Translations under genes and position numbers: made by a program
Notes under the pieces: model-generated
What the model saw: the letters and a program-made list of their open reading frames with translations, nothing else
What the model was told of the DNA's origin: nothing
The model's database searches: none
Part shown: in pieces, positions 8,991 to 64,000 of the stretch
Layout of the letters: each line of letters starts with the position of its first letter
How positions within the stretch are numbered: the stretch's first letter is position 1
NCBI RefSeq assembly: GCF_964355755.1
Contig: NC_092672.1
Coordinates: 11,966,001 to 12,030,000 of the forward strand
Reading direction: 5' to 3'
Length of the DNA stretch: 64,000 nucleotides
From: Antedon mediterranea
Taxonomy: Eukaryota > Animalia > Echinodermata

Positions 8991-9520
8991 CTAAGCATTA
9001 TATTCTAACTTTTCAGCAGGAACAGTCAAGTTATTCTCCTTTAAAAATGCAATAAATGATTGCAAGTTATCCTCCCTTAGAATCCCCCTTTGTTCAAGAT
9101 CTAATATCACAGTCCATTGGTTGTTACTTTGTTTTTTTAGAACACTTTTCAAACGGATGAGATCTCTTGTATTTTCTTTCGAAAGTGCGTCACCAAACTG
9201 AATTAGGTGTTGTCGATATGTTGAGAAGGAGGTGATACACTGGTTGGTTTTATCAAATTTCTCCTTTAACAGTTTGTTGACCTCCAGAACACCATTGGTA
9301 CCAGTGACATTAATTGCGTCAACAAGAACTTTAACGTTTGTACTGGTAAGATGGCCAGATCGTTTCAATAGGTTGAAGAAATGTATGCAGTCAGCATCCT
9401 GCAAATCATTGTAAGGTGTTATCAGATCTTTGCATAACACCTTCAGTTTATCAATTGAGCCATGTTCATCATACCAGCTTGATATGTTTACCACGATTTT
9501 TTCAAACTCTTCGGATGATC
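8991..9520 (-). CDS. Terminal exon of copy 1: tandem DED-like (death-fold) effector
   Basis: LKVLCKDLI...FFNLLKRSGHLTSTNVKVLVDAI followed by FSTYRQHLIQFGDALS...ILDLEQRGILREDNLQSF. Spacing resembles the DED1-DED2 pair of caspase-8/cFLIP; no RxDL motif. Fold assignment is by eye. Confidence 0.7.
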
Positions 9521-12500
9521 CTGTAAAAAAGAAAACCGAAAACAATTACATTCAGATTTTCAAGTTAGAAATTGTAATAATCATATTGCGCAATATGATG
9601 AATACTATCAATTGAATACACGCATTATTTGGTACACAGTGTATATCGTTGAACACCATGGACATAAACACATTCAATTCACTAGTATCATTCCTATTGT
9701 GGTGCGTTGGTATATTAGTTACCTGGATAAATTGGTGATGGCTCCACACTACTTCTGCCTGGAAATGAAATGATAATAAATGATGTTATATTTTAATTTT
9801 AATTCTTCAAAAGCTGTGTAGATATACTTATTATCATTACATAGATATTCACGTACATTTGTCACTGAAATATATCATTGTTATTTATTTGTAGGTTAAA
9901 TATGTATATAAGTAATATAGTTAGTTGTCATAAAATACATATTTATTTTGTCATTAAACACAATATTGATGAATGTGTAATCCCACCTTCCAAAAATAAA
10001 CGCTTTAAGCGATCAGTTTTCATCGACTTCTCACCACATGGAACAGTGCTGTTGTCTTCTTTTAAACACTCTTCCAGATCGTGTAAATGAATGTGCTCTG
10101 GATAACAGGCGATACACAACACACGTAGGTTGTAACCGATTCCTTCATTAGTTTTCAGCACAGCCTTTAGTTGAAGCTGTAAATAGCTTAGTATCTAAAA
10201 CAAAAAATACATAATCAATAAGTTTGAATGAAACGTTTCTTATAACTGCATTCAGATAAGCTATTACATTACAATATTAGAATCTTTACCTCAATGCATA
10301 AGCTCGGTTTTAGTTCAAATATTTCCTCTGTGTTATTTTCGTCAACTTTACTTCGACGGGATATTTCAAGCTGTTAAAAAAGATGTATTGATTTGTTGAA
10401 TTATTTAACATATTCTATCTCACACTGCTTACGTCTACGTATATTCATTACTGTAAATTTATTTGGTGAATATAATGTATCATTTAATTTTTAGAATTTT
10501 TCAGAGAATTAAAAATACCCGTTGGGCAACCTAGATACCAAAACATTAAAAACTGTAACACAAAATAGCCTCTATATTAATTTTAGTTATATTATTATAA
10601 AATTATTTGTTGTTTTATTGTCTAAGTTACTTTTATTCTAAGAATCTTAAATGAATACATATTATTAGAATACATAAATTATGTTGTAATCACAGCTTGT
10701 ATTATTATCCATCTGTGTAGTCATGATCAGACGTACTTAGCTCTCACTACTGCTAAAACTGATTGAATGTTTAGGAGACCAAATTTCTACATGCAGAAAA
10801 TGATCGGAAATAATTGATAATTTGATATTTGTTTAAAATCTTTCTAAAGACATGCTAGCTAATCAACAGAAATAATAAATATTCAAATTATTGTAAATAA
10901 TGAGTTAAATAAATGTTCGTACCTTCAACGCATGCATGTTTTCATTTTGATGGTCGATTTTCACGGGACCTAAACGAACCTCATGATCTCCAAAGTCAAA
11001 ATCACTACGATTTTGAAATACAACTGGGTCCCGTCCTCTACCTTTAAGCTCCACCAGGTTTAGAAATGCAACAACTAATGTATTGTACACAGAATCAGGA
11101 AGGAAGTCCGTAGGTGTAAGATAAAGTGATACCTTCTGTTTCTTGTCCATTTCAACTTTAAGGCTTTCATCCTTAATTTTCATCCGACATGGAACCAGGA
11201 ACATCCGGTTATCTTCGCTTTCATGCTAATGTAAAATAAGTATTTGTAGTGTTATGAACAATATAATATATAACATCGAACTATATTACTAAAATTATCT
11301 CAGATTTAGTTAAGAGCAAATTTGTTCAACTTACTTCTAATTTCTCATAGAGCAAACCAAATGTTTTCATCACTTCAGTAAAAATATCAAAACGATTTGG
11401 ATCTTCTTCTAATTCTCTTTTCCATAAATGCCGTAGCAATTTTTTCTCAAGGATCCCTTCCTTGTTAAGCTTTTTCCAAAGATTTCTTAATTGTTTCTGT
11501 TTCCAAATAATAAATACAAAAACTAATTTGTAAACGTATTCATACAACCACAATAAATGTTGACAACAAACAACTAACTAAAAGTAATCATGTATCCACA
11601 TGTCAATATTTTAAATCCGTTTTGTGACAATTATTTTGCTGCTAACCTTATCTACTTACCACTTCAATAGTTGGTTCAACCACTGTGATCACTTTTGTCA
11701 CCATTTCAATCATGTAAAGATTTGTTATCACTGTGTTTCTTAATTTCTTGTTAGTACTTGAATACATGATAACTCCAATGTCATTCAGGTACGCTATGGC
11801 AGTGTATAGCCCATTTTTTGAAATTCCACATTCAGTGCCGATTTTAGATGTCTAATGCAAATTAATAACAAAATAGAATTTATTGAATTTGATGATTAAA
11901 TATTGTTATTTTCCTTTAAAATAATTGTAAACAGCTTATTGTTGAATAAAACATAATTTTATCTAACATTCTTCCTTTTGACTTGACATTTTAGAAATCG
12001 CATTGTCGAGAACGCCTATTTCTGGTTAAATGTAACTGTTTCCTTGCATTTTTTATATTTATTTTACATTATCTTTGTTCAGTTTTTTTAGGATGATAAC
12101 TAGCTTTTATTAACATTACGAAACAAACAATTAAAATGTTTGATTTCATTAATAATTTTAGTTGCTCATGTTTTGCGGGAACAACTAAAACAAGAAAAAT
12201 AGTACAATAATGATGAAGACTCCCAAATACTAAAAAATGACAAGACATCTATATTTACTATTGTAATATTAATTCACATCACTGGCTCGAGAAAAGAACT
12301 TGGCAACATTTATTTATTTTATTTATTTATTTATTACCATATTTACTGAGGGTAGCCTATCCAGTAAAAGTAATTGTTACCGTATAGTACACTTTTTTTA
12401 ATAAGATAATAAATTATTTTTGTACCAGCGTTCATACTCTATGTGTTTTATAAATCTGTGTTTACAGTTGTGACAACATAAAATAAACGATTATACATTT

Positions 12501-15500
12501 AAACAAAATACTTACCTCAGTAAAAGTAATACACAGTGTTGTTTTTCCAATTTCTTGCAACTGTTCTTGCAAATCCGCCCATTTTAATGGGACACTTCTC
12601 ACCATGGCCTTCATATAACGACCAACGTTTCTCCTTAGTTGTTTTATACCTTCATGCGATTTTACAGTGTTATCCACCATGTACATCTCACGATCTACAG
12701 GATCGGCATATGGCATTCCTTCCATTTTTTCAAACATTTTACGAAACTTATCCTCCACTTCCTTTAATAAAAAAGTTTTTTCATAAATACAAGCTATAAC
12801 AACAACAAAAATGTAATTATTCTTACAAACTGTTATTTCATATTCTGATTTGAATAAGTCTAACAGATAATTACACTTAATATACGATTTAATTCGTAGG
12901 CTATGCTATTTAAATTTCATCACTGTATCGGTTTTAACTAATTCAGAATTAATCCTGTCCGTGTATACCACATACTGTACCATTGAAAAATTGTAAGCTT
13001 ATTTAATGTTAATGTACGTCTGTTACCTTGATCCAATTTTTGGATTTTGACTTTTTACTAAATGTGTCCATATGTGTAGCAACCAAACAGATAGGAGGTG
13101 ACTCAATGATCTTGCCATCAATATTAATGGGACTTCCTGGACCATGTTGTGCCACAGTATGTTCATAAATGGACCTTATCCAGAACATATTCATTTCCGA
13201 ATTGGTCATTCCTAGTGTACTCTAAAATCACAAATAAAATGCAATCTTATAAAGTAATCTAAAATATTCTCAATAACAAAGATATGCATATTTAATAAAG
13301 TGTATTCGAGCAAATAAGTAGGTACTGTAGGCACTTACTGTAATTGAATCTCGCGGATTAGCTGGTTCATCCAAGTTATCACACGCATTAAACGCTACAC
13401 AGTAGGATACTCTATTTGTGAGGAAAAACTAAACAAAATACAATTGATAATAATAACTTTTTTTTATACTCCAACACATTTATTAGGGATGTGTTAATTG
13501 ATACATGCAATAATACTTTATTGAAAATGTTATACCACAACACAATGTCGTACTGTCACTATGAGCAAATATCTTTATATTTTAATAATCATTTAACATA
13601 TGAAACAAAAACTATAGAACAAACGAAAAAATACATGAATCAAATAAAATTTTAAAATATAATTTAAAGGTCTGTTTAATAAAATAGATACGTAAACAAG
13701 CAAATCAAGACCCTTTTTTTAAACATGCAGCAATAAATTTATTTTTTAATTTTTAAGACATTTTTAAGTAATAGCAAATAACAAAATAGGAACATACCCT
13801 ATGCGTTATGTAGTAGTCCAGTTGACCTGCGTAGTCCCATATCGTAGTTACGTCACTTGGAATACTTTCTGAATCATCACTTTTTACAAATTTCCTAAAC
13901 TTTTTCATCGCCCAACTATCTTTCTGTCTTCGCTTTTTTATTTTAGCAACAACTTTTCTTTGAATTGAGTCGGGAATTGTCAGATTTTCATTTAGTTGAC
14001 TCTCTACATTCAAATAATTACTACAAATCAATGGTGTGTGTGTAAATTAGATATGGATATGGATAGATGGACTGGTCTGATTTTTTGTGATTAGACATAA
14101 TGAATGTTATAAAGGATAAGTAAGTGTATACAATAAATAAATACATTAGTCAGGATAATTAAAGAATTGAACGAGCAGCGAATATTATTCATTGCCCAGT
14201 TTTAATACCGGTACCAATGCAATATTTGCATTTTAATACATTTATATGTTTGCAACAAGAACAACCGCACTCTTCCATACATATTATTTTATTAAATATA
14301 AAGAGTCCAACCCTTTTTTGCCGAATTCTCTGCCAATGACGTGCAATCAGACTCTCTAGAATCTGATGTAGAAGCCTCGCATAAAGGAAGTTCGTTGAAA
14401 GATGTTCTTTCTTTCATCTTTAATGTAATTTCTTCCACTACAGCGTCTTCAAATATTCGCTGGGTTTGCTTGAATCTCAAGTTTTCTGTCGGCGAAAATG
14501 TATAACTAAAAATAATTATTTGTGTCATGTTGCACTCATAACGAATAAAATGGTTATAGTTTTATATACTAGAGCACTGAAATATCACTTATAGGCCTGT
14601 ATAAGCTCCACAGCTCTAAAGTACTACTTTATATTAATAATAATGAAACAATAATATAAACAACACTCCTATGAAGTTATAGTGTTTATTTCAGCATCAG
14701 CATGTATAATACACTACATTAATTTGTTATTTACATTAAATTGGTTTATTTACTTTACAAAACCTAAACAATAAACTAAAATATTAATTTCTCTTTCTTG
14801 TCATGAAATTAATTTGCTGTTATTAATTCGCGTGCTGACTTGATAGGTCTATAGTAAAGTGATTAAAATGCGAAAAACCAAACTTTATTTATGCAAAATA
14901 ATCGTCAATACGTATTATATTATTGATGTTTATTTGAACACTTTAAAAATATTTAAAAAAATAATCAAACCTTCTACTGAATACACAGAGTCAGAAGATA
15001 TAGAACATTCAAAATCAGATATTGAAGGTGTTGAAACTGCACCTTGTAAATGGAATTTGGTTCCAGTTGACGTTTGTTTTTCCATCTTTGCTGTGATGTG
15101 TTCAGGCGTTTTCTGGGATGTTCCTGCAATTCATTCATATATATTTTTGATACAATATATAAAATGTCTAACATTTCACTTTTATGTATGTTTCTATACT
15201 GTATGAGTGCATCTTAACCAATACAGTTTGTTTAGAATAATAAAAATACCCTTGTAATATAAATTGTAGTAGACATTCATCATACCTGTTTTTACTGGAT
15301 CCAAAGAAGAGATTGCTGATGATTCCAGTTGGAAATCAGATTTAGATGTTGACATATCTGAACTTCCTTCGCCATCATCCATTTCTTCTTTTATTAACTG
15401 TGTTGCAAGTTTTTCTGCAAGTGCATCTTCCCGTATTTTCTTGTTGAGCTCCATAACTGTAAAAAAACACAAGGTGAAATAAGGTTGTACGGTACACATC

Positions 15501-18500
15501 ATAGAAAATAAATTAAATACTAAAATTAGAAAAATGAGATATATCATCAAATCACCGGTAAATAAAATAAATATAATATGTAGGTCATTTATGTAATTAT
15601 TGACCAAAATGCATTTTTAAGTATTTATTAAAAATATTATTTCCAATGTACCTTACCGGTACTTATTTACCTTAATTATGGTACTAATAAATCTCTATAC
15701 AAAAATTGGCCAAAGCAGGCAAGTATGCGTATGTTGAAGGAAGAGAGAGTTTCTCTCTTTTGTGGGGACAGCCCACTTTGAACGAACAGTTAATGTGTCA
15801 TTTGTTATGGTTGAATTCTTCTTTTCAAACTTACCGTCGATATCTTCCTTCTTCCACTTGTCACAGTCTTTTCCAATTGCTTGAAACAATGTCGTTGTAA
15901 TAACAATACTATCAGTAGATAGTTCGTTGGAATTAAATCTATAATAATGAATAATGAACTCCAAAAGGTCGGATTTAATGAAAGTAGAATGTATCCAATT
16001 GTTCATCTTAAAATATTAATATATTTAAAATAAAAACGAAGTGAAGATCACAAGTAAATAAGCTGTATATTGATGAAGACCATATATATTTTATTGGTGC
16101 ATCTTATAAAATAACTTGGTTCTTTTGTTACCTTAGTCCAAGCATGGCCTTTACACAGCTAGTTTTTCCAGCACCTTCTTTCCCGAGAAACACACATCTT
16201 GAATTTACAACTGCAATCTCACCATTTTCAAGTTCATTTTGAAATGATCTAACTGCCCTCTCACCTCTAGCTAATATTTCATCTGGAACTAAATTGCAAT
16301 TAAAATGAATGCAAAATATACAAAAACAAATGTAAAAATACAAATATTTTACACTTAAGAATCAATTCGAAGCCATAGTTTTAACAATGTCATTATGACT
16401 GCTCATCTTTGTCACATTCATACAGTTCAAAGGTTCAGTACAATTTTAAATGTGTGTCATTAGTAATATACTGTTTAATATTCATGATGCAAAACTCAAG
16501 AAAAGTGTATTAATGCAAACTTACTGTCAAATAACTTCAATATCTTATTTTTCGTCTGTTGGGAGATTAGAATATTTTCCTTCAAAGCAAACAGATGCAG
16601 GTGTTTCTCCTCGCTATACAAAAAAATGTATTAAAGTATTATCCACTGTTACTTTACTAATACTAGTAATGTACATAATCCGGATTGTAATGAATACATT
16701 TATAAGCCAATAACGTGCACACGTTAATATGACACAATCTGAGTACCTTTGCACTAGCCAACACCAACACTAACTGCTCTACCATTTAATGTTTAATGTG
16801 ATTGAATACGGTACACTTTAAAAATGCTATTGAAAATTTGTATAAAAGAATAGTCGATACTGATTAAATGTACATGTTAATTATCGCATCTATGAGAATG
16901 TACCCCAATGCTAACATAATGACTTTAAATAATTAGCGCCCTTTCTGATATTCTTTAGCTCCATGTTAATAACATACTCCTAATCAAAATAAGAGTATAC
17001 CTTGGATATAGGCGTAATGGTTTGCTTAATAAGCACAATTTAAAAATGCAAATTCAATTTTGCATTAATTGACGGTACCTTGTTTCTTGCTCTAAGTGAT
17101 GCTCCGTGGGCTATGAGACTGTTCACAATTTCTAAATCACCAATACTGCTAAAGCTGACGTGTCCATGTAGCGGTGTGTTTCCCTCCTGGAAAGCAGAAA
17201 GTTTTATGTATTATAATATACATTTTACACGTTTGATACTAGAACTAAGGTTTAAACACATATATTGTATTATTATCTTTCAGTAGGACTTCGATGATCA
17301 TCCCTGCCAAATCGCCAGGACTTGTCTGGTGGGTGTAGGCCAACTGGAAATGCGTCTGACAAGTGGACAGCAGGGAATGAGTCCAACGGATGTGAAGCAT
17401 GTCTATTGATTATAGATTATAGAATGAAAGTTAGATGATAAATCTTAATTGGGGTAAAAAATTAACTTCATTAATGTAAACGGGGTCCCATCGTTTTATT
17501 ATTTTTTATGAAATCATACACATAAGCGCCATTATTGGTTCGGCATCATAGTCCTCATGGTTTATGGTAAAAAAATTGTCAAGTAAATGGAGTATGTTGT
17601 TAATTGTCTACGATAGACCACAGTACATCATTACTGTAAATAATACAACTAGTTGATTTTAATTGGGACGTGGAGAGGTGTTAGCAATGAACATAATTTT
17701 GAAAGTATTGGTATTAACGTCTTGTTAAATGCGGCAGCTATATGATGTTTAAAATAATTTAAACTCACTTTGATAAATAAATATGACTTTTTTTCAAAAT
17801 AAAAATAAATTAAACAAATCCAAGGTTTGTTTATACGGGAGCTCATTTAGATTAACTTATATTGTTAATTAATACAAATGATAACGTTATTGATTTTTTA
17901 ATCATTTTGAAAGAGTAATTTACATTGTTTGTTATATAGATACAGACGGGTTAGCGCTGAACACATTTTAAAACTATTAATTTAGCGTCTTGTTCAACGT
18001 GTCTATGTAGCGGTGTGTTTCCATTCTGAAAAGTAGAAAGTTAGATTAAACTTGAGACATTTTTTTAAGAATACAGGTATTATTATATTACATATTTATC
18101 TTTTTCTATATTAATTTTCTAATTCATTAAGAGTGACTGTAAATTATATAGAAAAACCTGGTATTAAGAAAATAATACAACTTGCTGATTTTAATTATTA
18201 TAATACAGACGGGTTAGCAATGAACACATTTTAAGAAAATAATACAACTTGCTGATTTTAATTATTATAATACAGACGGGTTAGCATTGAACACATTTTA
18301 GAAGTATTGTTCAATCTAAAACGCTACAGCTACACGATTTTTAATATATTTTAAATTGTATTTCTGCTTTGATAATAACTATTATATTGTTTCCAATGAA
18401 AACACATTAAACGAATCTATGGTTTGCTTATAACGGGAGATAATGTAAATTAACTTATAGTGTTAACTAATACAAATAATTACGTTAATGATTTAAATCA

Positions 18501-21500
18501 TTGTATAAGAGTAATTTACATTGTTTGTTGCTGTGATTGATGCTCCGTGAGCCATAAGACTGTTCACTATCTCTACATTACCATCGCCAAGTGCAACGTG
18601 TCTATGTAGCGGTGTGTTTCCATCCTGGAAAGAAGAAAGTTAGATTAAACTTGACGCTTTTTTTCAAGAATACAGGTATTACTTTATTACATATTTTCCT
18701 TTTCTATATCAATTGTGTAGTTCATTGAGAGTTAACTGTAGATTATATAGATAGATATATTATATACACTTTTCCAATGAAAAACACATTAAACGAATCT
18801 TGGGTTTGCTTATAACGGGAGATAATGTAAATTAACTTGTAGTGTTAACTAATACAAATAATTACGTTAATGATTTTAAGTCATGGTAAAGGAGTAATTT
18901 ACATTGTCTGTTGCTGTGATTGAATCTCCGTGAGCTATGAGACTGTTCACTATCTCTACATTATCACGGCCCCACCAAACGTGTTCATGTAGCGGTGTGT
19001 TTCCATCCTGGAAAGAAGAAAGTTAGATTAAACAACTTGACGCATTTTTTATGCGAATACAGGTAGTATTATATTTCATATATATCCTTTTCTACATTCA
19101 TTTTCTAATTCATTAAAAGTGACTGTAGATTATATAGAATGACCTGGTATTAAAAAAATAATAAAACTTGCTGATTTAAATTATTATAATGCAGAAGGGT
19201 TAGCAATGAACACATTTTAAAAGTATTAATTTAGCGTCTTTTTCGATCTAAAACGCTACAGCTACACGATGTTTAATATATTTTAAATTGTATTTTTGCT
19301 TTGATAATAACTATACATTTTTCCAATGAAAAACACAATCAATGAATCTAGGGTTTGCTTATAACGGGAGATAATGTAAATTAACTTGTAGTGTTAACTA
19401 ATACAAATAATTACATTAATCCTTTTTAATTCATTGTAAAAGAGTAATTTACATTGTTTGTTGCTGTGATTGATACTCCATGGGTTATGAGACTGTTCAC
19501 TATCTCAACATTACCACTGCCCAACCTAACGTGATCATGTAGCGGTGTGTTTCCATTCTGGAAAGAAGAAAGTTAGTATTATTATATTTCATATTTTTCT
19601 TTTCTACATTCATTTTCTAATTCATTAAGAGGGAATGTAAATTATATGGAAATACCTGGTATTAAAAAAATAATGACTAACTGATTTCAATTAAGACATG
19701 CAGAGGATTTAGCAATGAACATCATTTTGAATGTATTGATGTTAGCGTCTTGTTTAATCTAAAATTCGACAGCTGTACATGATGTTTAAATATCGTAAAT
19801 TATATGGTGATGGTTAATAACTAAAAATAATATAATTTATTAAATTAATAAACATATTCCTACACCTGGACATTTCGTTTAGATTCAAGTAAACTTTCAT
19901 GAATACTGAATTTGTAGATATGTATGTATTTACATAACATAATTGCAAATTCCAACAATACACACTACGGTGAATTCAATAAATATTTTGTTATATTATT
20001 AATCTACTATCCATCCCACCTTCATCCTACAATAAAAAAAAATATTACGTAATTCGTTTCTCCCATTTGCTATGAGGCTTTTGAATGCAAGCTATGTGTA
20101 TGTATCGTGTTATATGACATTTGCCTTTTTGTTATATTTGTTGCATTTGTATTTTATCCTATTGGTGACGTACTGTCTGTAGTTTACCATTTTTTTTTCT
20201 ACTACGAATAATAACGTTAATGATTTAAATAATAGTAAATCTCTGTCAACGCTACCAAACTGTATCAATAAAGTGTCGTACTGTCTGTATTTTACCAATT
20301 GTATCATATCTTTACTTTATTTATTTAATATGTGACAAGCAGGAAAGTTTGTTTTACATTTCTCAGAGCTTGTTGGTATTTCATCATAATTACATTTTTC
20401 ACAAATTAAAATATTGTGGTTTAGGGCCTACATAGTTATTCTACCGTATCAACAGTGACGCAACTTCCGGGTTCCCATGAGAGGCACGACCAGTGTCCGC
20501 TAAGATCATTGTACTTCCAGAACCGCGACAGGTCAGACGTGTGCGCTAGTTGGATATTGTTTCTTTGGATACATACGGCGTGAGGATCATCGCAGTTGTG
20601 GGCTTCATAAAAGGTAACGTTAAAATTTTGCTTTAGGTGTAGTTGCTAGAGGACTGGGCGGACTGTATTACCGTACGGACGCCCTTAATTTAGCCTATAT
20701 GTCTTTATTTCTATCTCCTTATCTTATGATGAATTCGGAGTAGGCTATTATAAATTGGGAATGATGGCGTGCAAGTGAGGCTATATGCGTGGTCGCCATC
20801 TTTAATCTATGGAATGTTATGCAGGCTGTGGCATGCCGCATATTTTTGTTAAAGGGAAAGTAAGTTACTCGTTTCCCTAATGCAGTGTTTTGTTTTACAC
20901 CTGCACAATGGAGAGTAAGCTGATAGTCTCCGTTCACTCAATTAGCCAATGCGTTAAAAAGGCTATAATTTATAATTTATAAATTCATTGCTATATCAGG
21001 CGGTTGTTGGGCCTTCTACTATACTACTAGGCCTAGAGCAGGCCTATTACCATAGAGATATTATAATTTCTCTATGCTATTACTAATTAATAGTAGGTAT
21101 TGCTAGCTAGGCCTTGACTGGCAAATGTGCATGTATGCGAGTATACTAAGCAGGTCATGACCTTAATGGTATGTCTGTTGCATACAGGTGTTAAGCGATT
21201 TTCTAATATGGCAGAACATGATGGCTCGCCAGGTGGTGCAGCTTTTAGTGTTGGTGATAAATTAAAGGAGGAGTTGATTAACTCGATGTCGTCAATGGTG
21301 GCCAGCATGAAGCAAGATTTGGTTCAACAAGTCAAAGACATGGTTGACTTCACAGAAGAGCCTGATGAGGGCCAGTCCTATATGCCTGTGTGGTTGGATG
21401 ATGAGCTCCCCGCTGCACAAACAGCACAGCGCATTGATGAGTACACAAGTGGGCCAGAGGAGGTAGCTACAGCTAGTCAAACCAGTGATTTTGCTGACGT

Positions 21501-49250: not shown

Positions 49251-49726
49251 AGATTGTCCCTGCGATTTGTTGATCCTCATACTGAAGCACAGGCGGACTG
49301 GAAATTGTAGACGCCGAAACTCAAACGGAAGATCTTTTGGTATAACTGGGATTTTTGGTATGAAAACATCTTCATTTTTGTACGGACCTGTTAAAATGTT
49401 GATTATGATTTGTTTTTGTGGAAATCTGAGTTTAGAATTTCGAGAGAGGTAACATTTAATTTCTTAACTGTCAGGAAAAACAGAAAGGACATTACAGTAA
49501 TTGTGGTTGCGGTCGTTGGAGACAGTTTGATAAATACAGAAACAACTACTACACAAAAGGAAATATTAAACGCATTGTACACAATGAGTTTCGTTTACTA
49601 CATTCTGGTTTACTACATTCTCGTTTACTACATTCTCGCCGCATCTGTAGGCCTATAATTCCTGTTGACAAACTCCTTTGACAACAGCAGAACATACATG
49701 GTTATGTGGTTGATGACTGGCCTGAA

Positions 49727-50083: not shown

Positions 50084-50231
50084 CCATTCGTAGTAAAACA
50101 CTGGAATATGTAGGAAAAACGTTATGTTGTTTAATAACGACTACATACAAATATTTCGAATTTGAATATAAATATACCGTCTAAGAATACTTACAGTGAA
50201 TATTCTTTCCTGGATTAACATAAACATAAAA

Positions 50232-52898
50232 GACAAATTTCGTTTTTGTAAAAGCACAAGTTAACGGAGTACTTACTCGAACGTTTCGATCTCTATCAGA
50301 GATCCTTCTCAACTGACTGCGGAGTGTTAATGCAGCTTGGTCATTCTTGACGTCATCTGTTGATGACGTCGTACGCCTCCGGTTGTAGGTTGGAGGTTGT
50401 GCGGGGCTCGGCCAGGTGATGTGTCTATCAAATCATTGTACAAATGCGAGAGTTCGTCGTGGGCTACAGTGTCCCGGTTCATGGTCTTCTCCTTATTTCT
50501 CCTTATATGTAATGATTCTCTAATCTGTCTGTCTTTGCGTTTAGACTCTTTGGTTAAGATGGTCGCCTCCCAGTTCGGTACATGATTGTGTTTTATGACA
50601 TGTTCTGTAATGGCAGATTTGTGTATGATCGAAGATGTGGATGTTCTGGAGGCCCTAGTCATTACTCCCCCCGTGTTTGTTGTAACATCTTTTTTGTGAT
50701 CATTAATTCGTGTTTGTAATGCCCTCCCTGTTTCCCCAATGTAAACTTGTGGACAGTTGCGGCAGGTGACTTCGTAGATTACTCCACATGTATCCATCTT
50801 CTCGATTTTATCTTTTGGGTGGACGAGGCTATTCTTGATTTTATTTTGGGGTAGGAAATAGGTTCCGACATTGTGATAGGAGAGAGTGCGTCGTATTCTT
50901 TCTGCCATTCCTTTTACATAGGGGATTCCTATGCTACCTCGCATCTTGATCTTTTCCTTCTGTGGTTCGTGTCCGTTGTTCTTTTTTCTTTTTCGGTTTT
51001 CCATAACTCTCTGGAAGGACCACTCTGGATACTGGCAGTTGTGTAACGCTTTCTTGATGTTATCCATCTCAACTTTCCTCAAATCCATACCTCCCACTAC
51101 CTTCTCAGCTCTGTCCACAAGCGTGTTTATAAGCCCCAGTTTGTGTTCGAGTGGATGATGTGAGTTGAAATGTAAATATTGGTCTGTGTGAGTGGGCTTC
51201 CGATAGACTGAGGTGGTAACAGTTCCATTGTCATTGAGTGTGATGAGCATGTCCAGGAAAGGTATTGTGTTGTTTGTCATGGATTCTGTGGTGAACTTGA
51301 TATTGTCAGTTATATCGATGTTATTAAGATGTGTGTTAAATGTATGTACTGTACCTGTGGGGATGATAGCTAATACATCATCAACGTATCGTTTCCAATA
51401 CACAGGCTTGATGTTAGTGGGTGCCGTGTTTATGGCTTGATGTTCGAGCCACTCTAGATACAAGTTCGCCAATATAGGACTTATTGGGCTTCCCATAGCA
51501 ATGCCTTGTATTTGCCTATAAATGTTACCATTGAACGAGAAATAGGTTTTGTTCACAATTAAACCGAGGAGCTCCATTATGTCTGTCACATGTAGTTTAG
51601 TTCTATCCAGAAGTGTCGGATCTGTTGTTAGGCGATTTTCGACAACTTTGAGGGCCTCTTCTACATGGTGAGCGACACTAATGTTTACGAACTGCCAAAA
51701 CGTAATCCAACACAAAACTATAAACGAAAAGTGGTCAACATCATAGGCAGGTTGTTCAAAGAAAAGAAAATCAACTACAGAGAGAAAGAATGGCTGTTTC
51801 TCACGGCTGAAATTGTACCTAGGTTGTATTGTCTTCCGAAGATACATAAACCAAATTGGCCATTAAGACCTATAGTAGATAACATCAACACCGTTTTTTA
51901 CACCGTTGCACAATTCCTCACCAAAATCCTGTGTCCGCTTGTCGGAAACACAGAACATCATGTAACTTACTCAGGAGAGTTGGCGAGTGAACTAAAAGAA
52001 ATAATAGTCAAACCAAGTGAAACATTTGTCTCGTTTCAAATATGGATTTGAGGAAAGTTGAGATGGATAACATCAAGAAAGCGTTACACAACTGCTAGTA
52101 TCCAGAGTGGTCCTTCCAGAGAGTTATGGAAAACCGAAAAAGAAAAAAGAACAAAGGAAACGAACCACAGAAGGAAAAGATCAAGATGCGAGGTAGCATA
52201 GGAATCCCCTATGTAAAAGGAATGGCAGAAAGAATACGGCGCACTCTCTCCTATCACAATGTCGGAACCTATTTCCTACCCCAAAATAAAATCAAGAATA
52301 GCCTCGTCCACCCAAAAGATAAAACCGAGAAGATGGATACATGTGGAGTAATCTACGAAGTCACCTGCCGCAACTGTCCACAAGTTTACATTGGAGAAAC
52401 AGGGAGGGCATTACAAACACGAATTAATGATCACAAAAAAGATGTTACAACAAACACGGGGGGAGTAATGACTAGGGCCTCCAGAACATCCACATCTTCG
52501 ATCATACACAAATCTGCCATTACAGAACATGTCATAAAACACAATCATGTACCGAACTGGGAGGCGACCATCTTAACCAAAGAGTCTAAACGCAAAGACA
52601 GACAGATTAGAGAATCATTACATATAAGGAGAAATAAGGAGAAGACCATGAACCGGGACACTGGAGCCCACGACGAACTCTCGCATTTGTACAATGATTT
52701 GATAGACACATCACCTGGCCGAGCCCCGCACAACCTCCAACCTACAACCGGAGGCGTACGACGTCATCAACAGATGACGTCAAGAATGACCAAGCTGCAT
52801 TAACACTCCGCAGTCAGTTGAGAAGGATCTCTGATAGAGATCGAAACGTTCGAGTAAGTACTCCGTTAACTTGTGCTTTTACAAAAACGAAATTTGTC
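50232..52898. mobile_element. Penelope-like element: minus-strand RT+GIY-YIG copy, inverted RT 5' fragment, and an inverted second 3' copy
   Basis: RT GIAMGSPISP...RYVDD, YRKPTHTDQYL; GIY-YIG VIYEVTCRNC...YIGETGR. ~858-bp inverted repeats at 50232-51089 and 52041-52898. Plus-strand fragment 51665-52036 reads PRLYCLPKIHK...LRPIV. Confidence 0.93.
52810..52856 (+). ncRNA. Putative Penelope-associated minimal hammerhead ribozyme (mirror copy at ~50274-50320, minus strand)
   Basis: TTGAGAA-G-GATCTC-tgata-GAGATC-GAAAC-GTT just after the ORF stop: variant core box, stem II and GAAA box. Confidence 0.6.
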
Positions 52899-53429
52899 AT
52901 CTATACAAAATCGAAGCTAAATGAAATTCTTTCAAGATAAACATAAAACTCTACAGTGAATAAAATGTAAAACACTGGAATTTAGAAAAAAACGTTTTAC
53001 GTTTTGATAACGACTACATACGTATAATTCAAATTTGAATAAACAGACCATGTAGGAATCATATCTACAGTGAATACAATTCACTGTAGAACCGAAATAA
53101 TAAATGGTGCCGTTTTCGCCGTTACTGCTTTTATAGTCTTGAATGAAACCCTCTGGAAATTCCACACTTGATAGCCTTTTGATACAAAGGTAATTTTTAA
53201 AATATTTAATTCATAATTTAAGTCATAATTCAGTAACTATTTGGTTTACGAACTTATTATATAACCATCTCCGGGAATTAACACCACGGCGGGCATAGAG
53301 GACAAACTGTTTGTGTTTGCATTTTATATAGATTATGATTGCATAGATTATGCAAATTATTTTTATATAAAAAACCTTTTCTTGCAATTAGTTTGATTTA
53401 AAAATGTATTACCCGTGGGCTAGTTACCT

Positions 53430-55973: not shown

Positions 55974-58900
55974 TTATAGACCTAAACCCTTTTTTAGCAC
56001 ATTGGCTTCGATCATCATTCTGTTCCTTTCAAGTTTATCAATAAATACACCCATGTCATTAAACACATATCTCTTATCCAGTTCAAACAAGAGGTCCCAC
56101 TCATTTGCTATTTGGTCAACAGCAATTTTATACCAACGGCAAATCGCATTTCTCTTATCTTCATTTAACATGCGACCAAATAGGATCAAATTTTGTCGAA
56201 GTTGGGAAAACTTAGTTATTGTGATACCGGTAACGAATCCATTGAAACACGGCATCTTCTGTTTAATGATATTCGCAGCACCATGCCATCCACACAAACT
56301 GAAACATTCAATGATCAAATCAACATTTGTACTGCTAATACGTCCAGTAGTAACAAGTAATCTGAATAGATTGAATGGGTCTCCTTCTTTCTCTATGGCT
56401 GCTACAGCAATGTCGTTGAAATCTAAAAGTAGTAACTTTAACATGTGTACATTCCCTTCATCTTTTACCCAGCTTGACAAGTCGACAAGAAGCTCCAGAA
56501 AGGCTTCATCAGAAAGATCTTATAAAGAAAACAAATTTGATTTTAGTAAAATTTATATTTTCATATACAAAATCTCAATTTATCCAAATATCGAAAGAAA
56601 AATAAAATAACTAACAATAAGTGAAAGGCCTAAAAATAATGGATATATAATATTACAAGAAAACAAATTTGGAAATGATAATAATCGCATGATGATGATG
56701 CGAATGTACTGTTATTATAGAAAATATCAAGGGTAACCGCGCTGCATGACAATGGTAAAATAAAGTTGGACAGGTATGTGATATATGTTATAGCAATGTG
56801 TCCGCTGGACGTAATATGCGCATACGCATTATTTTCAATGTTGTGACAGTGAGATTATAACGTATTGTAAGATTGTTACCTGTATTCAATGGAGCCAATG
56901 GTAGTGTTTCAGGTAGGCATACTGCTGTATTAATATCACCTGTACAAAAATTAAAAATAATGTTTTTAATGAAATATAACTTGAAAGCACAAATTCAAAA
57001 ATGTTTTGTTTAATTTGAAAAAAATAAACCGAAAACATAAATCGGCAGTAAAAAGAATGTAGTCAATGTTTGTTTACTTACGTTTCGCTGTTGTTCCTGT
57101 TGGCCCAGTGGCAGCTGCATCTTCTTGTTCAACTGTATCTAATGCGTAACACAGTAATAAACATTACTTACTTTCCACTAATTGATTTCAGAATATTGTA
57201 TGTGTACAAAGTTGAAATTGATTGATTTATTATTGTGTTGCTATCTATCGTGAATTATACAATACACCAGTGCACTAGAAGGCATTTGGCATTAGTGACA
57301 ATTATCTGTAGTTCTGTTCTGTAGGTCAACATAATATTTTTTTTAGAAAATGTTAATAACAATGTATACTTTCAACTAACCATCTACAAGCAGATACTTT
57401 AAACGATCAGTTTTCATAGACTTTCTGCCACATGGAACAGTATCTTCTTTCAGGCATTTTTCGAGATCGTGTAAATGAATATGTTCTGCTGTATGACAGG
57501 CGATACACAACACACGTAGGTTGTAACCAATTCCTTCATTAGTTTTCAGCACAGTTTTTAGTTGATGCGTTAAATATCGTAACACCTACAAACCAATTGA
57601 TAATAGAAAAGATGAGTTAAAAAACTGTTTTTGTAAAATGATTGTAATACTGTAGTTAAAAAGAAACCTTATAATCTTTACCTCAATGCATAAGCTCGGT
57701 TGCGGTCCATATATTACCTCTGTGTTATTATCATCAACTTCAATCCGACGGGATATTTCAAGCTGATGAGAAAAGTTGTCTTCTTTGTTAGTATTATGCC
57801 TACATATAGTACACTTATACAAGGGGAGAGTGACAATTTTACTCTTCCCTGCTATCCTACCGACTAAAATATTTGGAATGGAATATAAAAGGATCAAAAC
57901 AATTGACTATCGTGTCGACACTGAATATCAAACATTTTAGGTTATGAACTGACAATTCACTTAATTTCTATACCGCGGGACCATAGTAGGCCTATTATCA
58001 AACCGATATTGAAATACAGTATAATATAAGTATAAGTAACAGTAAATAAGTAAATTATACAATTAATAAATGTAGGTGGTTTGCATTGTGTATTCTCAAG
58101 CTAGCGTTTACCACTTAACCTAATTTATGCGTTTACTATTTATTTTTAACAGTAGCTTTATACTGTATACATTAGTGAAATGTTAGTTTCTAACGAATTC
58201 ATACAATATAACTTTTTATACTGTACCTTTAATGCATGCTTATTTTCCCTTTGATGCTCAATATTTACGGCACCTAAACGAACTTCATGATCCCCAAAAT
58301 CAAAGTCACTGCGATTTTGGAACACCACTTGATCACCACGCCTACCTTTGCTCTCCATTAAATACAGAAATGCAACAACTAATGTATTGTACACAGCATT
58401 AGGCAGAAAGTCAGTAGGTGTAAGATACATCGACAACGTGTGTTTCTCGTCTTTTTCAACTTTCAGGCTCTCTTTCGTGTTTTGCATTCGAGATGGAACA
58501 AGGAACATCCGGTTGTCTTCGCTTCGGTGCTGATGTAAAAAAAGTTTAATTATAGTGTTATGAAAAAGTAACATCGATTTGGAATAGGCCTACTATAATA
58601 ATCTCAGATTTAATCAAAAGCCAAGATGCTTAACCTACTTGTAATTTCTCATAGAGCAAACCAAATGTTTTCATCACTTCAGTAAAGATTTCAAAACGCT
58701 TTGAATCTTCCTGTAATTCATGTTTCCATAAATGCCGTAACAATTTTTCCTCAAGTATTCCTTCCTTGTTAAGCTTATTCCATAGCATTCTTAGTTCTTT
58801 CTGTTACCAAATAATAGAGAAAAAAAACTAATGAATAATAACTTATACATACACTATAAAACCGCAATATATTTCATCAAAACAACTAAAACGGATATTA

Positions 58901-61900
58901 GGTATCTATGTTGGACATGATAAGGAATATTGTTATCAAAAGAACTGGAAAGAAAAAATAGACGCATTAGAAAATACCCTAAAAACATGGGAGAAAAGAC
59001 ACCTCACTTTTTTTGGAAGAATTACTATTGTAAAAACATTAGCGCTCTCAAAAATTATATACAATTCCTGCATTTTGCTAGTACCAGAAAAAGTAATAAA
59101 AGAGGTGGATAAATTAATTTTTAAATTCATTTGGGAAACTAAGAAAGAGAAAATAAAAAGAAAAACCATGTGTGCCAATTACAGTCAAGGTGGTCTAAAA
59201 ATGGTAGAATTCAGATCTCAGGTAATATCTTTCCAAGTTAAATGGTACAGGAGACTGTATGAAAACGATGATGCCAAATGGAAATATTTACCTACATTTT
59301 ATATAGAAAAGATAGGCCCAAAATCATTAACCTCAAATTTATCAAAAGTTCCGTGTAATATATCCGTACCACCATTTTACCTCTCAGTTATTAAGTCTAT
59401 AGCAGTAGCTAATGCTTGTAATAATAGATTAAATAAGGAACCAATAAGCTATGATGACATTATTAATCAATCATTATGGGGTAATGAGTTTATATGTATT
59501 AAAAAGAAGCCGTTATATAACTGTAACTGGATTAGTTCAGGGTTTTTAAAAATATATGATGTAATAAATAATAATGTGTTTAAGCCTGCGATAGAGATAA
59601 AAAGAAGGTTAAGATGTACACAAAATTGGATCAGTGAATATTCATGTATATTGAAAGCCATTCCAAAAGAATGGAAATGTATTTTAAAATCAACACATGA
59701 CATTAATGTAAATGATATACCTATTACAAACAATAAGGTCTTAAATATGACGTCTAGACAATTATATAGATTCATAATAGATGCTCAATATATTACACCT
59801 ACGGCACAGGTTAAGTGGGAATCCATATTTGGTAATATGCCATGGACAAAAATATGGGTTAAAAAAGTTTCTGGTCTTAAAGAAAAAAAACTGGCACATT
59901 TTAATTTTAAATTGTTGCACAGAATATTGCCAACAAATGAAAGATTACATAGGTGGAGACTTGTAAATTCCCCATGTTGTGACACTTGCAATGTTATTGA
60001 GAATGATAAACATATGTTAGTAGAGTGCATAACAGTAAAATGTTTATGGAGAGAGATAAACGAAATAATTAGAGCAGTAAGCATACATATTCCTGTTTTT
60101 TCTTTCAAAAGACTTTTATTTGAAACTGACAATAATTACGTAAATAAATTATACACTTTAGGAGCATTTTGTATTTATAAAGTAAAGATATTAAGTTTAT
60201 TGGAAAAAGAAAAAAAAATCAATCTCCTACAAATGTTTAAATCTGAAAAAAAGATAAGAAATATGTAAATCTGCAGGTATACTGTATATGCTCAACCAGA
60301 TTAAGGAAGAAAATATGTAAATGAGATACCATGAATGATGAATCTATTATGTTTTTTTTTTTCTACTATACTGTATGTTTTGTAAACATGTATACCTTGA
60401 TGATTTGAAAACAAAAAGACAAAATGTGAAAAGCTTTTTATAGATTGAAGATAAAAAAAAATGATGAAGGATAAGAAGGTTTAGGTTTAAGTGGGGAAGT
60501 GTTTTCATCAAAGCTTTCATATTATAGGTATATACCGTATATATGTAATTTGCACATTCTTACTGCATGTGGATTTTTGAAATGATAAAATGGTTAAAAA
60601 GAAAAAAAGAATGTCTAATTTTTTTAATGGATCATTAAACACAAATGTTGTTAAATGATAATGTATGTATAAAAAAATAATAGAATAAATAATAAGTAAA
60701 AAAAAATAATTGAATGAACCCACATAGGAAAAAAAAAAGTTAAATGAAACTTTGATGGGTTATACTGTAGATGCAAAAAAGGATAATCTGTTGGAAATAA
60801 ATTTTGTAAACATTTAAAGATCAAAAAAATCAATGTTAAAGGATGGGACAAACCCATGGGATGGATTTATTAAACATAAACGTATTATAATTGTATGAAA
60901 TAAATATGCATGTAGATGAAAAAAAAAAACAAAAACAACTATGTAAGAAAAAATAAGCTTTGTTAATGAAAATGTGTTATAGATAATATGTATAAAAAGA
61001 GGAAACTATGTAATCAATGTGGTTAAATGATAATGTATGTATAAACAAAATAATATATGGAAATAGTTTTTTTTTTTTTAAAGAAAATAAGTAAAAAAAA
61101 AAAAAAGTGGAATGAATCCACATAAGAGAAGAAAGTAAAAAAGTTAAATGAAAATTTAAGAAGTTATAGATGAAAAAAAGGATCTGCTGGTTTTGTAAAC
61201 ATTAAAGAACAAAAATATTAATATTAATGTTAAAGGATGAGAACAATATTATGTTAACAGTAAACATGTAGTAAGTAATGAGTATAACAGAGAATATGCA
61301 TTGTTAAATGAAAATGTGGTAGATGAAAAAATCAAAAACAACTATGTAAGAAAAAAAAAAGCTTGTTATTGAAAATGTGTTACAGATAATATGTTTAATC
61401 AATGTGATAATATGTAAACAAATGAATAAATAAGTATATGTATACAGATGATTAAACAAACATTGTAAATATAATGATATGTATAGTGTATAGTGAAAAA
61501 TATATGTAAAGAGAACAGTGGTTTGGAAATAAAAGTGGGATGAACCCACATAAGATAAAAAAAAAAAAACAACTAAAACGTTTTATATTCACATTGTTTT
61601 GTAACAATTATTTTGTTAACCATATCTACTTACCACTTTTATAACTGGTCGTTTCACTGTGATCACTCTTGTCACCATTTCAAGCATCATGTAAAGATTT
61701 GTTATCACTGTGTTTCTTAATTTCTTGTTAGTACTTGAATACATGATAACTCCAATGTCATTCAGGTACGCTATGGCAGTAGATAGCCCGTCTTTTGAAA
61801 TTCCACATTGAGTGCCGATTTTAGATGTCTAATGCAAATTAATAAGAAAATAGAGTGTACTGAATTTGATGATTAAGTATTGTTATTTTCTTTTAAAATA

Positions 61901-63347
61901 ATTGTAAAGATTTATTTTTGAATACACATTTTAGAAAGGGCATTGTCCGGAAGCCCTATTTCTGGTAAAATGTTACTGTTTCATTGCATTTTTAATCGCG
62001 TGGACGCGACTCTATAGTTCCCTATGTCGGTCGGTCGGTCGGTCGGTCTGTCGGTCGGTCCGGTATCACTATGCGTTTTATCGCTTTTCTGTACTTTTTG
62101 AACTGTTTTGATGTACAGAAAAGTTTTAAAGTACATTACTTTTTGAAAGTTCATTTTTTTCTGAGAGCACGCGACTTATGGCTGTTGGCCTTGTTTATAT
62201 TTATTTTACGTTATTTTTGTTCATTTTTTTAGGATAGTAAATAACTTTATTAACATTACGAAATAACCAATTCAATGTTTGATTTTATCAATAATCTGAG
62301 TTGTTCATGTTTTGCGAGAACAACTAAAACAAGAAAAATAGTACAATAATGATGAAGATTTCCAAATACTAAAAAATGACAAGACATCTATATTGACTAT
62401 TGTAATATTAATTCAAATCGCTGGCTCAACAAAGAACTTGTCAACATTACATTGTAGACAGAAATGTGAACTTCAAATTATGACGTTATACATTATAATT
62501 GTTACCGTATAGTACACTATTTTAATAAGATAATAACATTTTTTACCAGCGTTCATACTCTATAATGTTTTATCAATCTGTGTTTACAGACGTTACAACA
62601 TACAATTCACGGTTATACATTAAAAACCAAAATCTTACTTCAGTAAAAGTAATACACAGTGTTGTTTTTCCAATTCCTTGCAACTGTTCTTGCAAATCCC
62701 CCCATTTTAATGGAATACTTCTCACCATGGCCTTCATGTAACGACCAACGTTTCTCCTTAGTTGTTTTATACCTTCATGCGATTTTACAGTGTTATCCAC
62801 CATGTACATCTCACGATCTACATGGTCGGCATATGGCATTCCTTCCATATTTTCAAACATTTTACGAAACTTATCCTCCACTTCCTTTAATAAAAAGTGT
62901 TTTCATAATTACATGCTATAACAACAACAAGAATGTAATTATTCTTACAAACTGTTATTTCATATTCTGATTTGAATAAGTATAACCGATAATTAAACTT
63001 AATACACGATTTAATTTGAGGACCGTAGGCTACGCTATTTATATTTCATCACTGTATCGGTTTTAACTAATTCAGCCCTAATATCCTGTCCGTGTATACC
63101 ACATACCGTTGCAAGATTGTAAGCTTATTTAATGTTAATGTACGTCTGTTACCTTGATCCAATTTTTTGATTTTGACTTTTTACGAAATGTGTCCATATG
63201 TGTAGCAACCAAACAGATAGGAGGTGACTCGATGATCTTGCCATCAATTTCAATGGGACTTCCTGGACCATGTTGTTTCACAGTATGTTCATAAATGGAC
63301 CTTATCCAGAACATATTCATTTCCAAATTAGTCATTCCTAGTAAACT
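55974..63347 (-). CDS. ROC-COR-tandem DED paralogue, copy 2 (5' part beyond the window). Exons: 63153-63347, 62639-62884, 61634-61828, 58639-58800, 58227-58529, 57682-57762, 57381-57585, 57082-57138, 56880-56939, 55974-56518
   Basis: Exon-for-exon homology with copy 1 (PPICLVATHMD, MVRSIPLKW, YLNDIGVIMY, LCIACHTAEHIHLH), GT-AG boundaries and consistent phases, no stops seen. Confidence 0.88.
58894..61565 (+). mobile_element. 5'-truncated L1/Tx1-clade LINE in an intron of copy 2
   Basis: Open ORF2 C-terminus to 60268 (LGIYVG..., YSQGGLKMVEF, CDTCNVIENDKHMLVEC zinc finger), long A-rich 3' UTR, poly-A, TSD aaaacaactaaaacg (58879-58893 and 61566-61580). Confidence 0.9.
61989..62194 (+). mobile_element. 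Short HINE-like element in an intron of copy 2
   Basis: Same termini and (GTCG)n tract as the 34330 copy; absent from the paralogous intron at ~12046-12060. Confidence 0.85.
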
Positions 63348-64000
63348 CTAAAATCATAAATAGATGCAATCTTACAAATTAAGCTAAAAATATTCTAAAT
63401 ATTAAACATTATTAGCAAATACAACGAACAATATGTGAGAAAAACATATAATTGTCTACCAGTTTCCAGGAAGGTTCAAGAAGTCGGCAAATATACCACT
63501 TTCATCTAACGCCCGTATTCTTAAACCTGACTTTAGTCGTAGTACGAGCTAAAACTAAAAAAATGACGTCATTTTAATTCATAAACCGAACTTCAACTAA
63601 ATCACCGACTAAATCAAGCCAACCTCGACTAAATCGAGACGGATTTTGATCGATTTTTTTAGTCCTGGAGGGGCAGGCTAAATTGTCGACTAAATGGTTT
63701 TTAAACGATTTTTATAAAAAACGTAACAGTCACTGAGTTGTTGTATTGGCCAGATATTGAAGAATGAAATATCTATATTTATATTAGCTTAATTAAATAT
63801 ACATTGGTATAAGTTATAATAATGAAAATCATCTTTATTTACAACTGTATACAAATTACATTATTTTCTTCGCGCAAGTCCGACTTGAACTACGTCACGC
63901 CATAGCGACAATGGGAGATGCGGCAATTCACCACGCGATGGAATGTTTGGGAAATATGACCGTTATCGCGAAATTTTCGACTTCGCATGACGTCATTAAT

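What the first reader, a model, noticed from the sequence alone, without database searches (positions are those of the whole stretch)
55974..63347. Paralogues share a near-identical ROC/COR core but carry very different effector exons
Seen: the exons and even the introns at 61600-63350 closely match 11630-13260. Similarity falls through the later COR exons. The linker differs (one 36-nt exon versus 57- and 60-nt exons), and the tDED exons share only roughly a quarter of residues by eye (SSW, LK.L..D, STNV, FS..RQ.LI.FG). All these 3' junctions are phase 1. Inference: gene conversion homogenises the switch while effector modules are swapped or diversify, which would give combinatorial sensor x effector pairing.
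Basis: partly seen in the sequence, partly recalled or inferred. Interest (0 to 1): 0.75.

Follow-up and report, generated by a model that had tools for sequence, protein, structure and literature searches.

The report
Mix-and-match Roco genes in a crinoid
A feather star carries a family of GTPase-switch genes (ankyrin repeats, Roc-COR switch, death-effector tail) whose copies are patchworks, with the same front halves joined to different back halves and tails, most likely through recombination between copies, which would make it an animal example of receptor-like genes, probably immune, being reassembled module by module.

Summary
The window holds two minus-strand ankyrin-Roc-COR-tandem-DED genes (A 8991-19557; B 55974-63347, 5' part outside the window) of the crinoid Antedon mediterranea. 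Between A and B, dS is 0.08 over exons 14-16 (introns 89-94%), 0.19-0.96 over exons 17-20 and about 2 in the tDED. Database paralogues show why. A, B, P0012 and P0014 carry all four combinations of two exon 14-16 blocks and two exon 17-22 blocks: 12 then 156 informative sites, one switch, at or next to intron 16/17, inside COR. A second break lies at the phase-1 linker: C-type genes share A's tDED (93-94%) but only 54-55% of its COR 3' half. Segment trees are incongruent. So Roc is shared, COR is not one homogenised core, and the tDEDs are old, conserved types that were exchanged, not fast-evolving copies. Conversion versus unequal crossover is unresolved. Immune sensor-effector function is inferred only. 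Gene A looks damaged, and the paralogues are gene models not checked against DNA or reads.

The parts
63153..63347 (-). Gene B exon 14 (Roc C-terminal part, ATHMD motif); 'b' type block begins; upstream exons not in the window
62639..62884 (-). Gene B exon 15 (end of Roc, start of COR-A)
   Evidence: 100% to P0001 and P0014
61994..62195 (.). 202-nt repeat insertion in B intron 15/16, absent from A; related to repeats at 26423-26940, 34329-34448 and 34612-35130
61634..61828 (-). Gene B exon 16 (COR-A, first half); last exon of the shared 5' block
   Evidence: (COR-A E 2.6e-6)
58801..61633 (-). B intron 16/17: the recombination boundary (between A residues 561 and 567); first 38 aligned nt 36/38 identical to A, then identity falls
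58894..61565 (+). 5'-truncated LINE retrotransposon, antisense to B, A-rich tail, perfect 15-bp target-site duplication starting at 58879 and 61566
   Evidence: (zf-RVT E 2.2e-7)
58639..58800 (-). Gene B exon 17 (COR-A, second half); B-type 3' block begins
58227..58529 (-). Gene B exon 18 (COR)
57682..57762 (-). Gene B exon 19 (COR)
57381..57585 (-). Gene B exon 20 (end of COR-B), ends in phase 1
   Evidence: COR-B E 0.015, weak
57082..57138 (-). Gene B linker exon, 57 nt, phase 1-1
   Evidence: matches P0001 100%
56880..56939 (-). Gene B linker exon, 60 nt, phase 1-1
   Evidence: matches P0001 100%
55974..56518 (-). Gene B terminal exon: tandem DED, beta type
   Evidence: pLDDT 92.7; TM 0.71 to caspase-8/cFLIP tDED
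17079..19557 (-). Gene A ankyrin array: four one-repeat, phase-0 exons (19453-19557, 18903-19007, 18520-18624, 17079-17186) in duplicated exon+intron cassettes, plus a broken repeat exon starting at 18025
16525..16613 (-). Gene A exon 6: 4 nt longer than the paralogues imply, out of frame from the first AG (stop), open from a second AG at 16609
13339..16288 (-). Gene A exons 7-13: Roc G1-G3 with a long low-confidence insertion; conserved STDG glycine reads serine in A
11660..13221 (-). Gene A exons 14-16, 'a' type block (95-97% to P0012)
9987..11496 (-). Gene A exons 17-20, A-type COR 3' block (96-99% to P0014)
9723..9758 (-). Gene A 36-nt linker exon, homologous to the last linker segment of C-type genes
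8991..9520 (-). Gene A terminal exon: tandem DED, alpha type
   Evidence: (DED E 5.3e-8, 33.4 bits, under the 35.9 cut-off)

Best explanation
A and B are members of a crinoid family of ankyrin-Roc-COR-tandem-DED genes whose copies are mosaics of a few old sequence blocks, most likely produced by repeated recombination between paralogues, and the proteins likely work as NLR-like receptors in which ankyrin repeats would sense, Roc-COR would switch and the tandem DED would recruit DED partners. Shown from sequence: a shared Roc pool; exon 14-16 blocks a, b, c; exon 17-20 blocks A, B, C; tDED types alpha and beta; combinations aA-alpha (A, P0035), bA-alpha (P0014), aB-beta (P0012), bB-beta (B), cC-alpha (P0005, P0011, P0013). 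Inferred: non-allelic homologous exchange (conversion or unequal crossover) starting in the near-identical Roc exons and introns and ending where homology drops (intron 16/17; the phase-1 intron after exon 20), with matching exon phases keeping the products in frame. Further inferred, from other Roco and DED proteins: the exchanged COR 3' half sets dimer partners and the tDED type sets the downstream adaptor or caspase.
For: Four-gamete set A/P0012/B/P0014: 12 of 168 informative sites (all in exons 14-16) group A with P0012, 156 of 168 (all in exons 17-22) group A with P0014, none the third way, 2 runs, 0 of 100,000 permutations. A vs C-type genes: Roc 91-92% (P0005, P0011), exons 17-20 54-55%, tDED 93-94%; A vs B-type: 76-77% and 28-30%. 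With outgroups: quartet A/B/P0011/P0006 p 64 of 100,000; A/P0012/P0011/P0016 0 of 100,000. On 13 sequences each segment rejects the other two trees by AU (p at most 0.0012). PHI-like test 0 of 2000 for exons 14-20 and 14-22. tDED types are conserved within type (alpha 89-100% without P0015, beta 92%) and fall in separate clades (support 0.94 and 0.97), each with proteins in which my COR profile found no hit. tDED fold TM 0.71 to caspase-8/cFLIP; Roc-COR fold matches LRRK1/2 and C. tepidum Roco at E about 1e-13 to 1e-14. The same tDED family sits on 5 NACHT proteins and 1 caspase among 50 proteins scanned. Anneissia relatives end in DED, Death or HEPN_DZIP3. Ankyrin exons differ mostly at codons 8-15 (pN 0.26-0.50 versus 0.06-0.07).
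Against: All paralogues except A and B are RefSeq gene models whose DNA I could not see (no genome; no reads), so mis-joined models are not excluded. For the tDED segment the SH test does not reject the COR tree (p 0.133) although AU does, and beta sits on a very long branch. The PHI-like test finds no signal within exons 17-20 (1397 of 2000) or exon 22 (1669 of 2000), so the intra-exon switch in P0015 (Fisher 7e-5, breakpoint chosen after looking) is weak, and the one in P0013 rests on 2 sites plus an exon-13 expansion in both P0013 and P0014. Gene A has a frame problem in exon 6 and a changed STDG glycine; B's model starts at an internal methionine, and several other models are 5'-short, so many mosaics may be dead copies. 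The ankyrin window was chosen after looking, on 3 exons, and pS there is 0-0.37, so positive selection is not shown. No expression, ligand, GTPase or DED-binding data.
Confidence: 0.72

Rival explanations
1. The recombination is real but is a neutral by-product of birth-and-death turnover in a transposon-rich gene cluster; most mosaics are pseudogenes and no new sensor-effector pairing is selected.
For: A has a frame-breaking exon 6 and a broken ankyrin exon; B carries two insertions and a 5'-short model; the 36 kb between A and B is full of retroelements; many models lack the 5' part.
Against: A exons 7-22 and B exons 14-22 translate without stops; exons 17-20 show dN 0.10-0.14 against dS 0.19-0.96; P0005, P0011 and P0012 are full ankyrin-to-tDED models with Roc motifs intact; divergent COR and tDED types persist beside a homogenised Roc.
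Confidence: 0.35
2. The reciprocal combinations are artefacts: gene models that join exons of adjacent tandem copies, or haplotype mix-ups in the assembly.
For: Only A and B were read from DNA; models have neighbouring accession numbers; P0010 and P0011 are identical over their shared length, P0019 and P0020 nearly so.
Against: The A/B step and A's own pairing of an A-type COR with an alpha tDED are in the window's DNA. P0012 and P0014 are not identical to either window gene in either half, so they are not joins of A and B; two opposite mis-joins would be needed. The cC-alpha pairing recurs in P0005, P0011 and P0013, and COR-C-like with alpha-like tDED also in P0006-P0008 on another contig.
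Confidence: 0.1
3. Plain duplication followed by faster evolution towards the 3' end, with no exchange between copies.
For: Identity between A and B alone falls from 5' to 3'.
Against: Synonymous sites and introns step with the proteins; each tDED type is highly conserved within type; all four block combinations exist; trees conflict.
Confidence: 0.03

Closest known systems
Roco proteins (LRRK1/2, DAPK1, MFHAS1, C. tepidum Roco); Trichoplax Rocos with CARD/death domains (PMC4104024, passages) and Aplysia Roc-COR TIR proteins (PMC9334734, passages)
   Same: Roc followed by COR, G-motifs, fold match to LRRK1/2 and 3DPU/6HLU; lineage-specific expansion with death-fold partners.
   Different: Ankyrin-only N-terminus, long insertion in Roc, no kinase, C-terminal tandem DED; block mosaicism between paralogues was not described in the passages read.
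Brown algal LRR-ROCO genes with exon shuffling (PMC3341825, PMC11378527, passages)
   Same: One repeat per exon, an inactivated repeat exon in an intron, damaged copies, immune role proposed from evolution alone.
   Different: Ankyrin not LRR; no inverted repeat exons found in the window; exchange here also covers COR halves and effector exons, whereas the algal papers describe shuffling of the repeats ('gene conversion' 0 occurrences in both main texts).
NLR/STAND receptors with interchangeable effector domains, e.g. Podospora NLRs (PMC13449251, passages)
   Same: Repeat sensor, nucleotide switch, cell-death effector; changes of effector between sister genes; intergenic repeat exchange.
   Different: Switch is a Roc GTPase, not NACHT or NB-ARC; domain order is reversed (repeats N-terminal, effector C-terminal).
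Caspase-8, cFLIP and vFLIP tandem DEDs
   Same: Same fold, TM 0.60-0.71 for the top ten matches; profile hits to caspase-8 tDED E 3.5e-6.
   Different: 12-18% identity; C-terminal on a GTPase rather than an N-terminal prodomain; partners untested.

Membership tests
Roco GTPases | Roc domain with G-motifs | tested here: met
   Pfam Roc 40.7 bits (cut-off 27) in P0012; GKEGAGKT, STDG, WDYAG, ATHMD present; A has STDS; B's G1-G3 lie outside the window
Roco GTPases | COR directly after Roc | tested here: met
   COR-A 60 bits (cut-off 35.3) in P0012; fold match to 3DPU, 6HLU, LRRK1/2
Roco GTPases | GTP binding and hydrolysis; COR-mediated dimer cycle | not testable with these tools
   Needs biochemistry; role of the COR C-terminal half taken from PMC6337361 passages
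Tandem DED (caspase-8/cFLIP type) | Two packed DED helical bundles | tested here: met
   Model pLDDT 92.7; TM 0.71 to 8YM4, Foldseek E 2.8e-3, probability 1.00; Pfam DED under its cut-off for both exons
Tandem DED (caspase-8/cFLIP type) | Homotypic DED assembly with adaptor or caspase | not tested
   Only family context: related tDEDs on a caspase and on NACHT proteins
NLR (STAND) receptors | NACHT or NB-ARC ATPase core | tested here: not met
   Pfam finds Roc and COR-A, no NACHT or NB-ARC, in P0011, P0012, P0015
Brown algal exon-shuffling ROCOs | LRR repeats | tested here: not met
   Repeats are ankyrin
Brown algal exon-shuffling ROCOs | One repeat per exon, with inactivated repeat exons in introns | tested here: met
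   Four phase-0 single-repeat exons and one broken one in A
Brown algal exon-shuffling ROCOs | Repeat exons inverted on the non-coding strand | tested here: not met
   tblastn of 24 family proteins against the window: all ankyrin hits on the gene strand; one gene only
Gene conversion (as against unequal crossing-over) | Non-reciprocal tract bounded on both sides with flanks and gene order unchanged | not testable with these tools
   Needs the DNA of the other loci; no genome held

The most novel reading that the evidence does not exclude
Crinoids have built an NLR-like immune receptor repertoire on a Roco GTPase, diversified in the germline at three levels: single-ankyrin exon cassettes, exchangeable COR dimerisation halves and exchangeable tandem-DED (or Death, HEPN) outputs drawn from the same pool as their NLRs and a caspase, with a shared Roc acting as the recombination platform.
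Probability: 0.3. Interest if true: 0.82.

Novelty: new variant of a known kind. Interest (0 to 1): 0.62.

Why it matters
Roco proteins are best known as single-copy genes such as LRRK2, and their proposed immune-receptor role rests largely on brown algae. A deuterostome family with natural reciprocal chimeras gives ready-made constructs to ask whether Roc-COR can act as a sensor-to-death-domain switch, whether the COR 3' half sets dimer specificity, and how an invertebrate reassorts receptor modules without adaptive immunity.

Tried and rejected
No whole genome is held and the sequencing-run search gave no answer, so loci, expression and A's exon 6 stay unchecked. The complex prediction of two copies of B's COR (P0001 66-412) gave no verdict (score 0.01, alignment not used) and is used neither for nor against dimerisation. 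A single-sequence PDB search with A's tDED found only 5 weak EB3 hits, E 0.15-0.8, rejected as chance. The cheap-gap sliding alignment inflates identity in unrelated introns and was not used beyond exon 16. An IQ-TREE run timed out and was redone with FastTree. That the LINE causes the boundary: it lies about 53 nt from the exon 16 donor, some 12-15 nt past the identity edge, but its intact duplication suggests it is younger than the A/B COR divergence, and I cannot see whether P0012 has it; kept as a lead only. Positive selection on ankyrin codons not claimed (3 exons, window chosen after looking). Three look-ups of earlier findings returned nothing. Seven paper searches listed no title on this crinoid family; I saw only the listed rows (17-20 each, of 19-264 matching papers), and most subscription papers are not in the library. 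No supplements were read; those of the algal, Aplysia or echinoderm genome papers could list such genes.
Full report
Observation. The window holds two minus-strand genes of one family. Gene A (8991-19557) runs from ankyrin exons through Roc and COR to a tandem DED; gene B (55974-63347) shows exons 14-22, and tblastn with 24 family proteins found no further exon of it up to the window's end and no family fragment between the genes. B's exons match the RefSeq protein P0001 of Antedon mediterranea at 100% from exon 15 on. Divergence between A and B is stepped: dS 0.08 in exons 14-16 with introns at 89-94%, dS 0.19-0.96 in exons 17-20, about 2 in the tDED (Fisher p 4e-11).

The family. Three homologue searches and cluster look-ups gave 40 proteins, nearly all from Antedon and Anneissia. 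Nine close paralogues besides P0001 share its 38.96-Mb contig (P0005, P0010-P0015, P0035, P0036); their physical order is unknown to me. P0005, P0011 and P0012 are full ankyrin-Roc-COR-tDED models. A profile search of 1.84 billion representatives found 254 proteins at E up to 1e-30; of 10 looked up, 8 were crinoid, 1 amphioxus, 1 unnamed. The model of P0012 (mean pLDDT 75.9) matches LRRK1/2 and C. tepidum Roc-COR; B's last exon folds as a caspase-8-like tandem DED.

Breakpoint 1, inside COR. Exon-by-exon identity shows A like P0012 in exons 14-16 (95-97%) but like P0014 in 17-22 (91-99%), and B the reverse (97-100% to P0014, then 79-100% to P0012). Of 168 informative sites in this quartet, 12 in exons 14-16 give one grouping, 156 in exons 17-22 the other, none the third; two runs; 0 of 100,000 permutations. 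The switch lies between A residues 561 and 567, spanning the phase-0 intron 16/17, which in the P0012 model falls in a loop between helices 620-631 and 641-653. In B this intron holds a LINE with a perfect 15-bp target-site duplication close to the edge of high identity; whether it acts as a barrier is untested.

Breakpoint 2, at the linker. C-type genes (P0005, P0010, P0011, P0013) are 54-55% identical to A in exons 17-20 but 93-94% in the tDED, while B-type genes are 76-77% and 28-30%. A's 36-nt linker exon is homologous to the last linker segment of C-type genes, so linker and tDED travel together from the phase-1 intron after exon 20. P0006-P0008 on another contig pair a C-like COR with an alpha-like tDED, which suggests, by inference, that the A lineage took its tDED from C-type genes. 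Over exons 7-13, A, P0005, P0011 and P0012 are 91-95% alike whatever their 3' ends, so the shared part is Roc, not Roc-COR; P0014 (77-79% to them) shows that a second Roc type also exists. On 13 sequences the trees for exons 14-16, 17-20 and tDED reject one another by AU (p at most 0.0012); SH does not reject the COR tree for the tDED data (p 0.133). The PHI-like test on 10 sequences is significant across segments (0 of 2000) and within 14-16 (1 of 2000), not within 17-20 or 22. P0010 (no exon 14) was left out of the AU trees and PHI test; P0003, P0004, P0016, P0017, P0019, P0020 and the Anneissia proteins were left out of the AU trees because they lack an alpha or beta tDED or are distant.

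Effectors are old types. Among 112 tDED modules from 77 of 182 proteins held, alpha and beta fall in separate clades, each with proteins that my COR profile did not hit (deep branches poorly supported). Related tDEDs occur on 5 NACHT proteins and 1 caspase of 50 scanned (the caspase's species was not looked up). Of 18 family proteins scanned, two Anneissia members end in HEPN_DZIP3 and one in a Death domain. The COR sister group of A/B (P0016, P0019, P0020) carries a third tDED type.

Sensor end. A has four single-ankyrin phase-0 exons in duplicated cassettes whose downstream introns are 92-94% alike, and one broken copy. Differences gather in codons 8-15, which from recall correspond to the binding face randomised in DARPins. 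The same ankyrin subfamily precedes alpha (A, P0005, P0011) and beta (P0012) outputs. That these repeats sense anything is inference.

Mechanism. Shown: block mosaicism, two boundaries, frame-compatible phases, folds. Inferred: exchange between paralogues seeded in the near-identical Roc region; conversion and unequal crossover not separated. Inferred from other systems: the COR C-terminal half drives dimerisation in C. tepidum Roco (PMC6337361, passages), so blocks A, B and C could set partner choice, and clustered tDEDs could nucleate adaptor or caspase assembly as caspase-8 tDEDs do (recalled; structures listed).

Against. A's exon 6 is out of frame from its first acceptor and its STDG glycine is changed; B's model and several others are 5'-short; the paralogues are unverified models; no reads or genome were available.

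What is known. Read as passages only: PMC3341825 and PMC11378527 (repeat-exon shuffling in brown algal ROCOs), PMC4104024 (at least 17 Trichoplax Rocos with CARD and death domains), PMC9334734 (Aplysia Roc-COR TIR proteins), PMC13449251 (effector changes and repeat exchange in fungal NLRs), PMC6337361. Recombination in clustered immune gene families is commonplace (own knowledge). The listings of seven searches showed no paper on this crinoid family or on COR-half and tDED exchange. Verdict: a true Roco family, NLR-like in layout but not an NLR; a new variant of a known kind; interest 0.62.

Noticed in passing
window 21118-24280 (+): Retroelement ORFs (gag-like, RT, RNase H-like) resembling a DIRS-type element by recall, just upstream of A's ankyrin array; no start exon of A was found.
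   Followed up: no
window 28186-33896: LTR retrotransposon with 689-nt repeats 99.6% identical and a 1407-aa ORF, BEL/Pao-like by recall.
   Followed up: no
window 39885-48452: LTR retrotransposon with 644-nt repeats 99.8% identical and gag/pol ORFs in three pieces, Gypsy-like by recall.
   Followed up: no
window 50226-52904: 864-nt inverted repeat (99%) around RT-like and GIY-YIG-like ORFs, Penelope-like by recall.
   Followed up: no
window 26423-26940 and 34612-35130: Two inverted copies (98.7%) of a 519-nt non-coding repeat; a related short piece sits in B intron 15/16.
   Followed up: partly
window 14312-15456 (A exons 9-11): About 160-residue, mostly low-confidence insertion inside Roc between G2 and G3, on phase 1-1 exons; absent from P0004, P0006, P0007, P0016; P0012 lacks half of exon 10.
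   Followed up: partly
P0003, P0008, P0063, P0070 (database proteins): Further crinoid Roco architectures: a second Roc-COR with hydrophobic tail; tDED-ZU5-tDED; zf-TAZ/KIX before Roc; DED-Macro-Roc-COR-Death.
   Followed up: no
P0043, P0109, P0126, P0143, P0167, P0172 (database proteins): The same tDED family on NACHT proteins (up to five modules in P0043) and on a caspase with two tDEDs, hinting at a tDED-based signalling network.
   Followed up: partly
window 48524-49251: Tandem repeat array of roughly 95-nt period.
   Followed up: no
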